IMG/VR virus record: IMGVR_UViG_3300006139_000004 | Span: 32,001 to 96,000 of that record | DNA from: a virus | Lineage: Duplodnaviria; Caudoviricetes | Strand: one strand, 5' to 3' | DNA length: 64,000 nucleotides | Shown: piece by piece, positions 15,332 through 16,181 of the stretch | Layout: each line of letters begins with the position of its first letter | How positions within the stretch are numbered: position 1 is the stretch's first letter | Notes under the pieces: model-generated | The model's input: the letters and a program-made list of their open reading frames with translations, nothing else | Database searches by the model: none | What the model was told of the DNA's origin: nothing | Program-made: the position numbers and the translations under genes

Positions 15332-16114
15332 ATGGAACTTCGTATTGATCAGAATGTTTTGGATCGGTTTCCCAACTTGAATGTTACTAAGGAAAATGAT
15401 GTGGTTACGGTTAAGTTTAATGAGGGCAATAGTAATTCTGACTTTCTGTTTCCCCTGAATTTCCCGCTGCATAATCTCGATAGTCTTTCTTGGAGCAAGA
15501 TTGATGAGATTGGTCGTGCTGGTAAGGCCAGAACGTTCTTTGCTCTTGGTGCAACTAAGAAGGACTATATGAAGAATGGATTTGTTGCCGAGTATCAGAT
15601 TATGGACTTCGATCATGACGATCTTGCTGATGACAGCGGCAAGGCTCCTATCAGTTGGGATATGGTTGCGCTTTATAAGGATGAGATTTATATGAAGCGT
15701 AATAGTGAGTCCTCTTGTTGGGATGAGTGTGATGGACGTACATTCCTTAATGGCGAGTTCTACGATAATATGTCTGATGAACTTCGTGCCATCGTTAAGC
15801 CTGTATGGAAGTTGACCGCCAACAAGAATGGTGAGATTGTAAAGTCCAAGGATTATGTCTGGCTGAAGTCTGAAAAGGAACTGTTTGGACGAGCAATTTA
15901 TTCTAATGATGGTGAAGGCCATTGGTATGCGTTGTTTATGCAGGAGGATTTTCCGTGGTTCAAACTGAATGGCGAGAATGAGCGAGACTGGCAATGGCTG
16001 CGTTCCGTTCGTGCTGGCATCACGAACTACTTCTGCTTTGTCGGCTCTGGCGGCTCTCCGGGCTACTACTTCTCCGGCTATTCCTGTGGGGTCGCTCCCG
16101 GCTTCTGTTCGTAA
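15332..16114 (+). CDS. DUF6273-like / C-type-lectin-fold DGR target protein
   Basis: VWLKSEKEL, C-terminal WQWLRSV...GVAPGFC; start reassigned to ATG 15332 after AAGGAG. Confidence 0.8.
   Translation: MELRIDQNVLDRFPNLNVTKENDVVTVKFNEGNSNSDFLFPLNFPLHNLDSLSWSKIDEIGRAGKARTFFALGATKKDYMKNGFVAEYQIMDFDHDDLADDSGKAPISWDMVALYKDEIYMKRNSESSCWDECDGRTFLNGEFYDNMSDELRAIVKPVWKLTANKNGEIVKSKDYVWLKSEKELFGRAIYSNDGEGHWYALFMQEDFPWFKLNGENERDWQWLRSVRAGITNYFCFVGSGGSPGYYFSGYSCGVAPGFCS
15987..16114 (+). repeat. putative DGR variable region (VR) with IMH
   Basis: A-poor, GC-rich segment of mostly NNC/NNT codons between WLRS and GVAPGF. Confidence 0.75.
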
Positions 16115-16122
16115 AGTTGATC

Positions 16123-16181
16123 GTTTTATCCCTCCTATCTCGTCTAAGGCGCAAGCCGGGACAGATAGGAGAGGATAAAAC
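16123..16181 (+). other. hairpin/cruciform downstream of the VR (DGR target-recognition element candidate)
   Basis: GTTTTATCCCTCCTATCT ... GGC-GCAA-GCC ... AGATAGGAGAGGATAAAAC. Confidence 0.7.

What the first reader, a model, noticed from the sequence alone, without database searches (positions are those of the whole stretch)
15332..16181. Remote DGR target: diversified non-structural protein ~47 kb from the RT, on the opposite strand
Seen: the last ~40 codons switch abruptly to an A-poor, GC-rich run of NNC/NNT codons (ggc atc acg aac tac ttc tgc ttt gtc ggc tct ggc ggc tct ccg ggc tac tac ttc tcc ggc tat tcc tgt) between WLRS and GVAPGF. A long hairpin with a GCAA loop follows. Known: DGR templates are AAC/AAT-rich and mutate at adenines; targets end in an IMH plus a hairpin. 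A DGR-type RT lies at 63017-64000. Inference: this early-region protein, with no signal peptide and not in the tail module, is hypermutated in trans. That suggests an intracellular binding role such as anti-defence, and it lies directly downstream of the ncRNA cassette.
Basis: partly seen in the sequence, partly recalled or inferred. Interest (0 to 1): 0.75.

Follow-up and report, generated by a model that had tools for sequence, protein, structure and literature searches.

The report
Remote DGR target in phage early region
A small lectin-fold gene among this mouse-gut phage's RNA-repair and DNA-modification genes really is a second, distant target of the phage's mutagenic retroelement and varies in nature. 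The same layout is already published for other gut phages, and what the small protein binds is still unknown.

Summary
The window is part of a 133.5-kb temperate phage of mouse-gut Oscillospiraceae. Its only DGR (tail-fibre target, Avd-like gene, TR, RT) starts at the window's end.

- **Template match.** The TR, 738 nt beyond the window edge, matches window 15995-16106 with 20 mismatches, all at TR adenines. The cis tail-fibre VR has 16, also all at adenines.
- **Shared recognition elements.** Both VRs end in the same GC-rich 3' segment and are followed by a long hairpin with a GCAA loop.
- **Natural variation.** Among 30 natural variants, all 16 adenine-containing TR codons vary. One variant is identical outside the VR but differs at 10 of 15 such codons.
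- **The protein.** It has 260 aa, is DUF6273, and has a C-type-lectin fold (pLDDT 91). It has no signal peptide. It is a distant paralogue of the tail-fibre tip.
- **Position.** Its place between a YunG-like gene and a kinase-phosphatase-RNA-ligase gene, next to methyltransferases, is kept in about 25 relatives. More distant homologues sit in replication modules and are also remote targets.

Published precedents exist: Quimbyvirus ORF84, Toutatis gp24, Shimadzu orf43 and Wu et al. 2018. This scan has reported the same layout in at least 14 other genomes. It is a new member of a known kind. A non-virion role is favoured (about 0.55) but untested.

The parts
15332..16114 (+). Remote DGR target gene, 260 aa. 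It is a free-standing DUF6273 / C-type-lectin-fold protein.
   Evidence: ORF and translation. Pfam PF19789, 48.4 bits against a cut-off of 23.5. AF2 model pLDDT 90.9. Structural match to the DUF6273 N-terminal domain of T. ramosa IgA peptidase 9qa6, Z 16.9, followed by C-type-lectin folds.
15995..16106 (+). Variable repeat (VR) core, 112 nt, codons 222-258.
   Evidence: Ungapped match to the TR with 20 mismatches, all at TR adenines; 20 of the 28 TR adenines are changed. All 16 A-containing TR codons vary among 30 natural variants.
16088..16107 (+). GC-rich 3' end of the VR (IMH-like, GGGGTCGCTCCCGGCTTCTG). It is shared with the cis VR and differs from the TR at 16102 (C in both VRs, A in the TR).
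   Evidence: Three-way alignment.
16123..16181 (+). Long hairpin capped by GGC-GCAA-GCC, 9 nt after the stop codon. It is the presumed DGR target-recognition element.
   Evidence: Fold with z -6.2. The cis VR has the same element, with an inner 32 nt that is identical and outer stems that differ by compensating changes. Fifteen distinct versions from relatives all fold into GNRA-capped hairpins.
63017..64000 (-). 3' two-thirds of the DGR reverse transcriptase gene. The full ORF is 491 aa and continues 492 nt beyond the window. The TR, the Avd-like gene and the cis tail-fibre target follow further upstream on the minus strand, all outside the window.
   Evidence: ORFs in L001. Pfam RVT_1, E 3.9e-13. 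LGxxxSQ and YMDD motifs are readable in the translation. TR and cis VR positions.
15028..15315 (+). YunG-like ORF immediately upstream, 17 nt before the target's start. It is the conserved upstream neighbour.
   Evidence: Pfam PF24591. Synteny in most of 25 IMG/VR relatives.
16224..18416 (+). Polynucleotide kinase - phosphatase - Rnl1-type RNA ligase fusion, 730 aa. It is the conserved downstream neighbour.
   Evidence: Pfam AAA_33, Metallophos and RNA_lig_T4_1; phrog_8238 E 4.5e-222. Synteny.

Best explanation
This is a genuine, currently active second target of the phage's single diversity-generating retroelement, acted on in trans.

Shown:
- The cassette (673-aa tail-fibre-like target, Avd-like gene, TR, RT) lies about 47-49 kb away on the opposite strand.
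- Its TR matches two VRs in the genome, and mismatches occur only at TR adenines.
- Both VRs end in the same GC-rich 3' segment and are followed by the same GNRA-capped hairpin.
- Natural copies of the 260-aa gene differ almost only at codons whose TR counterpart contains adenine.
- In relatives with a diverged TR, the remote VR follows its own TR at non-adenine positions.

Inferred mechanism, by analogy with Bordetella phage BPP-1: TR RNA is reverse-transcribed by RT with Avd, with errors at adenines. The cDNA then replaces any VR that carries the matching 3' end and hairpin, wherever it sits in the replicating phage genome.

The product is a soluble C-type-lectin-fold (DUF6273) binding module with about 16 randomisable residues. 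It has no signal peptide or membrane segment, and none of the large cis target's N-terminal Fn3/Ig-like region apart from a short remnant (no virion-attachment domain was tested for).

Inferred function, about 0.55: it is made with the early, non-structural genes and acts off the virion. It would bind a variable host molecule, or a competing phage's molecule, during infection or lysogeny. The DGR-target claim alone is about 0.98.
For: DGR target:
- BLASTN of the VR against the 133,491-bp genome finds exactly two partners, both next to the RT.
- Remote VR against TR gives 20 of 20 mismatches at TR A. Cis VR gives 16 of 16.
- The RT has RVT_1 and the LGxxxSQ and YMDD motifs.
- The hairpins are conserved.

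Activity:
- 90%-identity clusters hold 540 and 296 member sequences.
- Among 30 variants, 16 of 16 A-containing TR codons vary, with 3-13 residues each. 18 of 21 A-free codons are invariant.
- P0123 is identical to P0001 outside the VR but differs at 10 of 15 A-codons.

Conservation:
- About 25 IMG/VR relatives keep the gene order.
- Three complete relatives (RT 72-73% identical) have their own TR, and their remote VRs differ from it almost only at adenines: 25 of 29, 17 of 22 and 14 of 18 mismatches over the 120-nt BLAST span, the rest lying mostly past the 3' end of the TR/VR homology.
- Four more distant prophages (target 44-47% identical, RT 34-39%) also have remote VRs, with 18/18, 18/19, 10/10 and 16/17 mismatches at TR A.

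Non-virion reading:
- The neighbours are a Thg1-like enzyme, tRNAs, the kinase-phosphatase-ligase, several DNA methyltransferases, a PAPS-reductase-like gene, a Sak4-like protein, a helicase, a sigma factor and a primase.
- In L035 the homologue overlaps the stop of an exonuclease gene, between Erf/SSB and primase/DNA polymerase.
- FP_Toutatis gp24 lies among methyltransferase and replication genes upstream of the Q antiterminator gene and carries a VR, 13 of 14 mismatches at A.
- There is no hydrophobic segment.
Against: Nothing argues against the DGR-target part.

Against the non-virion reading:
- The protein is a paralogue of the tail-fibre tip (27% identity, E 2e-21, including a remnant of the preceding Ig-like domain).
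- DUF6273 is otherwise known from surface proteins, phage fibre-like proteins and the extracellular T. ramosa IgA peptidase.
- Published authors of the Toutatis and tentaclin cases propose receptor-binding roles.
- Large phages can scatter structural genes.
- No expression-timing or proteomic data exist. RNA-library contigs cover the gene in four studies, but contigs cannot show timing or level.
- No binding partner is known.
Confidence: 0.55

Rival explanations
1. It is the same DGR target, but the small protein belongs to the virion or acts with it. It would be a second receptor-binding protein or adhesin that docks on a fibre, the baseplate or the capsid, giving the particle a second, independently randomised binding site.
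For: It is homologous to the C-terminal 310 residues of the cis tail-fibre target, including part of its last Ig-like domain. The fold family is otherwise extracellular. Receptor-binding roles have been proposed in the literature for small DUF6273 targets (PMC10743442; bioRxiv 10.1101/2024.10.15.618418). The adjacent ligase domain matches the T4 Rnl1 family (phrog_562). From my own knowledge, the T4 member, gp63, also promotes tail-fibre attachment.
Against: The small target sits in early, replication or DNA-modification modules in at least four different gene neighbourhoods checked here, and in Quimbyvirus according to the literature. It has no recognisable virion-attachment domain. In Shimadzu mouse experiments, VR2 alleles were under weaker selection than the tail VR1 (bioRxiv 10.1101/575076). 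The ligase neighbour is absent from the L034, L035 and Toutatis contexts.
Confidence: 0.33
2. It is the same DGR target, but the protein is expressed from the prophage or released at lysis. It would act outside the producing cell, for example by binding neighbouring cells, mucus or host immunoglobulin, or as a lysogenic-conversion or exclusion factor.
For: The phage is temperate: an integrase lies at 60199-61221, and prophage copies occur in Flintibacter muris and other Oscillospiraceae. RNA-library contigs from mouse-gut metatranscriptomes cover the gene. The best structural match is a domain of a gut-bacterial IgA peptidase.
Against: There is no signal peptide or anchor. No own promoter or terminator stands out. 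The RNA evidence consists of contigs only and cannot separate lysogenic from lytic expression. The role of the IgA-peptidase N-terminal domain is itself undefined.
Confidence: 0.1
3. It is not a DGR target. The similarity to the TR would be a relic of gene duplication, or chance, and the site would no longer be rewritten.
For: None was found. The idea was considered only because the RT is 47 kb away and on the other strand.
Against: All mismatches are at adenines: 20 of 20 with 28 A in 112 nt, which by my arithmetic gives a chance probability below 1e-12. Natural variants differ only at A-codons on an identical backbone. The remote VR tracks lineage-specific TR changes.
Confidence: 0.01

Closest known systems
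Quimbyvirus ('Quimbyviridae', Bacteroides phage) second DGR target ORF84 (Benler et al. 2021, Microbiome 9:78, PMC8008677)
   Same: One DGR has two targets. One target is by the tail-fibre genes. The other is distal to the structural module, on the opposite strand, among methyltransferases and a tRNA ligase. It was read as non-structural and involved in phage-host conflict.
   Different: The host phylum differs (Bacteroidota against Oscillospiraceae) and so does genome size (about 75 kb against 133 kb). The Quimbyvirus RT is frameshifted.
Small DUF6273 second targets of Clostridia gut phages: FP_Toutatis gp24, Lelie and CP11 'small DGR target', nd4/nd12 target2 (bioRxiv 10.1101/2024.10.15.618418; PMC11792537; PMC10743442)
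   Same: A large and a small DUF6273 target share one TR, with the VR at the C-terminus of the lectin-like fold. The small target is a core gene away from the cassette. I confirmed that gp24 lies in the early region and carries a VR with 13 of 14 mismatches at A.
   Different: BLASTP finds no similarity to gp24 beyond the VR. The distances there are about 17 kb or less, against 48.7 kb here and about 95 kb in one integrated relative. Here the neighbourhood is an RNA-repair and DNA-modification island.
Roseburia phage Shimadzu orf43 / VR2 (Cornuault et al., bioRxiv 10.1101/575076)
   Same: A second VR lies in a gene of unknown function, in addition to the tail-gene VR. Both were shown experimentally to be rewritten.
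   Different: In that case activity was measured in reads from virions and mice. Here activity is inferred from natural variants. Homology was not tested.
Bordetella phage BPP-1 DGR (mtd-avd-TR-brt, with IMH and a downstream hairpin)
   Same: The cassette order is the same. Mutagenesis is adenine-specific. The VR lies at the 3' end of a C-type-lectin-fold gene, has a GC-rich 3' end, and is followed by a hairpin with a four-base loop.
   Different: BPP-1 has a single, adjacent, virion-borne target. Here a second target lies 47-49 kb away among non-structural genes. Mtd did not appear among the structural matches.
Non-adjacent targets of phage-associated DGRs (Wu et al. 2018, NAR 46:11, PMC5758913)
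   Same: That survey describes one adjacent and one non-adjacent target within about 50 kb in the same prophage as a common pattern.
   Different: The survey did not examine the gene context or function of the non-adjacent targets.

Membership tests
Diversity-generating retroelement (DGR) target | A TR/VR pair whose differences fall only at TR adenines. | tested here: met
   20 of 20 mismatches at TR A for the remote VR and 16 of 16 for the cis VR.
Diversity-generating retroelement (DGR) target | A DGR-type reverse transcriptase next to the TR. | tested here: met
   A 491-aa ORF 352 nt downstream of the TR. It has Pfam RVT_1 (E 3.9e-13) and readable LGxxxSQ and YMDD motifs. No RT phylogeny was made.
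Diversity-generating retroelement (DGR) target | The accessory protein Avd. | tested here: inconclusive
   A 187-aa ORF lies between the cis target and the TR. It hits NF033474 DivGenRetAVD at only 20 bits against a cut-off of 80 and has no Pfam hit. Homologues sit beside RTs in other DGR loci.
Diversity-generating retroelement (DGR) target | The VR lies at the 3' end of the ORF, with a conserved GC-rich 3' end (IMH-like) and a downstream hairpin. | tested here: met
   Whether the element works in target recognition cannot be tested with these tools.
Diversity-generating retroelement (DGR) target | Ongoing diversification at the VR. | tested here: met
   Natural variants. Read-level variation within one sample was not obtained, because only contigs were available.
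DUF6273 (PF19789) / C-type-lectin-fold variable protein | A profile match above the gathering score, and the fold. | tested here: met
   48.4 bits against a cut-off of 23.5. AF2 pLDDT 90.9. Z 16.9, rmsd 2.2 A over 171 residues to the DUF6273 domain of 9qa6. Z 5-8 to Lcl, BACOVA_04982, TvpA and many C-type-lectin domains.
Tentaclins (Baykov et al. 2023) | An N-terminal C-type-lectin domain with the VR near the 5' end, followed by Ig-like domains. | tested here: not met
   The VR is at the C-terminus and no Ig domains follow.
Mtd-type virion receptor-binding protein | Virion attachment, a trimeric fibre-tip architecture, and location in the tail module. | tested here: inconclusive
   The gene is not in the tail module. 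Mtd is not among the structural matches listed. Oligomeric state and virion presence were not tested.
Non-structural remote phage DGR target (Quimbyvirus ORF84 type) | Distal to the structural module, on the opposite strand to the cassette, and among DNA methyltransferase and RNA ligase genes. | tested here: met
   compared with PMC8008677. Sequence homology to ORF84 was not tested.

The most novel reading that the evidence does not exclude
Small free-standing lectin-fold DGR targets encoded in the early, replication or counter-defence regions of many unrelated gut phages may form one functional class. They would be intracellular, antibody-like binders that the phage keeps re-randomising to neutralise variable host defence proteins, or a rival phage's proteins. 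That would make the DGR a counter-defence diversifier as well as a host-range device. This phage family would be a tractable example, because prophages are present in cultured Flintibacter and Acutalibacter strains.
Probability: 0.3. Interest if true: 0.8.

Novelty: new member of a known kind. Interest (0 to 1): 0.36.

Why it matters
The finding adds a well-documented case, in a 133-kb Oscillospiraceae phage family with cultured lysogens, to a published but unexplained pattern. In that pattern, phage DGRs rewrite a tail-fibre gene and also a small soluble lectin-fold protein encoded among early genes.

The main contribution here is breadth. The small target keeps its early-region position and its link to a distant TR across lineages whose RTs are only 34-39% identical and whose neighbouring genes are unrelated. 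That argues for a selected, non-accidental function.

Large metagenome surveys miss these targets by design (Roux et al. 2021 say so). The biological question of what the small protein binds and where it acts remains open. It is directly testable with virion proteomics and knock-outs.

Tried and rejected
- **Complex prediction.** P0001 was run against the C-terminal 269 residues of the cis target with complex prediction. The score was 0.00, which is no answer and not evidence either way.
- Contexts of distant homologues were therefore taken from the search for related loci and the genome search instead.
- **Laid reads.** Only Logan contigs of RNA libraries were available. They cover the gene in four studies but cannot show timing, level or within-sample VR heterogeneity. 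One RNA contig ends inside the VR at 16049, which I do not interpret.
- **Characterised phages.** Searches of INPHARED found no close relative.
- **Promoters and terminators.** The scan showed nothing distinctive around the gene.
- **Same phage in another strain.** Comparison with L031 at the DNA level was less clean than hoped. That strain is only about 97% identical and has its own TR differences. The protein pair P0001/P0123 was used instead.
- **Fused forms.** A search among longer proteins gave only three hits, and none carried an enzyme domain.
- **Conserved disulfide.** A disulfide between C235 and C259 was considered as a sign of an extracellular life. It was rejected because the terminal Cys is not kept in other lineages.
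- **'Tail fiber' label.** The phrog_1491 label on the upstream 212-aa coiled-coil gene was not taken as evidence of a tail module. The family is widespread and mostly annotated as hypothetical.
- **Quimbyvirus ORF84.** Its record could not be fetched, so sequence homology to ORF84 is untested.

Full report
**What is there.** The window is bases 32001-96000 of a single 133,491-bp phage contig. The ORF at 15332-16114 (+) encodes 260 residues. Its last 37 codons, 15995-16106, are the most adenine-poor 112 nt in the whole window. They have 7.1% A against 32% overall, and only 7 of 63,889 windows are as low, all at this locus. Nine bases after the stop codon a hairpin spans 16123-16181, capped by GGC-GCAA-GCC. 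As DNA it folds at -21.8 kcal/mol with z = -6.2.

**The template.** BLASTN of the region against the whole genome gave exactly two partners, both on the minus strand just beyond the window's end. A three-way alignment shows their roles.
- Genome 96844-96955 is the template repeat (TR). It is rich in AAC and AAT codons.
- Genome 97773-97884 is a cis variable repeat at the 3' end of a 673-aa protein.
- Over the 112-nt core, the remote VR differs from the TR at 20 positions and the cis VR at 16. Every one of these positions is an adenine in the TR, which has 28 A.
- Both VRs end in GGGGTCGCTCCCGGCTTCTG, where the TR has an A in place of a C.
- Both are followed by the hairpin. Its inner 32 nt are identical at the two sites, and its outer stems differ by compensating changes.

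The cassette order on the minus strand is target, 187-aa Avd-like ORF, TR, then a 491-aa RT. The RT has Pfam RVT_1 and readable LGxxxSQ and YMDD motifs. The Avd call is weak, at 20 bits to NF033474. The remote VR is 46.9 kb from the RT stop codon and 48.7 kb from the TR, and it lies on the opposite strand.

**Is it active?**
- The protein belongs to 90%-identity clusters with 296 and 540 distinct member sequences.
- Among 30 members, variation is concentrated in the VR.
- All 16 codons whose TR counterpart contains adenine vary, with 3 to 13 residues each.
- 18 of 21 adenine-free codons are invariant. The three exceptions are two-state lineage differences.
- One natural variant, P0123, is identical to the window's protein at all 221 upstream residues and at all adenine-free VR codons. 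It differs at 10 of 15 adenine codons.
- The cis target also has many variants.

**Conservation.** About 25 IMG/VR contigs (46-88% identity) carry the gene in the same place, between a YunG-like ORF and the kinase-phosphatase-RNA-ligase gene. In three complete relatives (RT 72-73% identical) the TR has diverged from ours at non-adenine positions. There the remote VR follows its own TR and differs from it almost only at adenines.

Prophage copies occur in Flintibacter muris DSM 110149 and in other mouse-gut Oscillospiraceae. The cis target is annotated in Acutalibacter muris.

Four more distant homologues (44-47% identity, RT 34-39%) lie in unrelated neighbourhoods. In L035 the gene overlaps the stop of an exonuclease gene, between Erf/SSB and primase-helicase/DNA polymerase. 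All four are again remote targets of a TR that lies 33-95 kb away in the three that share a contig with it. Their mismatches at TR adenines are 18/18, 18/19, 10/10 and 16/17. The hairpin with a GNRA loop is kept after both VRs across the window's own phage group, in 15 distinct versions. A GC-rich hairpin also follows both VRs in at least one of the distant lineages, L036.

**The protein.** It is DUF6273. The AF2 model is confident from residue 50 onward, with an overall pLDDT of 90.9. It matches the DUF6273 N-terminal domain of the Thomasclavelia ramosa IgA peptidase (9qa6) at Z 16.9 and rmsd 2.2 A over 171 residues. It then matches a long list of C-type-lectin folds, including the DGR variable proteins TvpA and BACOVA_04982.

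It aligns with the last 310 residues of the cis tail-fibre-like target at 27% identity and E 2e-21. Its poorly modelled first 50 residues align with the end of that protein's last Ig-like domain. It is therefore an old paralogue of the fibre tip. It is closer to small targets of other lineages (47%) than to its own phage's large target. It has no hydrophobic segment.

**Context and function.** The gene lies in the plus-strand arm. That arm carries a Thg1-like enzyme, a phosphoesterase, tRNAs, ncRNAs, the RNA-repair fusion, several DNA methyltransferases, a PAPS-reductase-like gene, a Sak4-like protein, a helicase, a sigma factor and a primase. The tail, lysis and integrase genes and the DGR cassette lie on the minus strand. 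So 'not in the tail module' is correct.

Together with L035 and L034, with Toutatis gp24 and with the published Quimbyvirus case, the small target is found repeatedly among early genes. I therefore favour a non-virion role, at about 0.55. A virion-associated second adhesin is at about 0.33. Nothing here measures expression timing or location. RNA-library contigs cover the gene but cannot rank or time it, and the complex prediction with the fibre tip gave no answer.

**Comparison with what is known.**
- Wu et al. 2018 already describe phage-associated DGRs with one adjacent and one non-adjacent target within about 50 kb.
- Benler et al. 2021 describe a Quimbyvirus second target that is distal, on the opposite strand, and among methyltransferases and a tRNA ligase. 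They read it as non-structural and conflict-related.
- Small DUF6273 second targets are described for Faecalibacterium phages and for nd4/nd12.
- Shimadzu VR2 was shown experimentally to be rewritten.
- Roux et al. 2021 note that their survey could not see remote targets.
- This scan has itself reported the same layout in at least 14 other genomes. I treat those reports as leads only.

**Verdict.** The finding is a new member of a known kind, and the function is an open but testable question.

Noticed in passing
window 14309-14911: In two of four RNA libraries, contigs over the non-coding stretch upstream have far higher word depth (about 400-2300) than the flanking genes (about 5-120). This fits abundant ncRNA(s).
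   Followed up: no
window 13586-13647 and 10389-10481: Rfam scores 13586-13647 as a tRNA (48 bits) but ARAGORN does not call it. ARAGORN calls 10389-10481 a tRNA with an undefined two-base anticodon.
   Followed up: no
window 4902-5852 and 16224-18416: A Thg1-like tRNA-His guanylyltransferase and a 730-aa kinase-phosphatase-Rnl1 ligase fusion lie on the same arm. Together they look like an RNA end-repair set.
   Followed up: partly
L095 49048-49200 (Faecalibacterium phage FP_Toutatis, NC_047915): The annotated CDS gp80, 'DUF6273 domain-containing protein', lies between avd and the RT. It coincides with the template repeat, so it is probably an annotation artefact and not a gene.
   Followed up: partly
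P0104 (one 2.7-kb metagenome contig): The first 95 residues are 66% identical to the small target's N-terminus. The rest carries BRCT domains instead of the lectin fold. This is either a recombinant gene or an assembly chimera.
   Followed up: partly
L035 / L086 (Oscillospiraceae bacterium, contig CAJTFN010000005.1): The TR and its remote VR are about 95 kb apart on one contig of an integrated prophage. This is well beyond the 50 kb that Wu et al. describe as usual for phage-associated DGRs. The distance may be shorter in the circular form.
   Followed up: partly
L031 8893-9230 ('Clostridiaceae bacterium strain 9'): A near-identical copy of this phage keeps only the first approximately 55 codons of the kinase-phosphatase-ligase gene. 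It then runs into a methyltransferase, so the ligase and Dam genes seem to be deleted in that strain.
   Followed up: no
window 13692-14330: The 212-aa coiled-coil protein matches phrog_1491, 'tail fiber protein' (E 7e-55). Its relatives in 740 phage records (T5-like, Bacillus phage G and others) are mostly annotated as hypothetical, so the label looks propagated and unreliable.
   Followed up: partly
window 16134-16167: Contigs from RNA libraries that otherwise belong to the cis-target locus of related phages match only this 34-nt hairpin core. The core is therefore shared between the two target sites across strains (tables 7 and 8).
   Followed up: no
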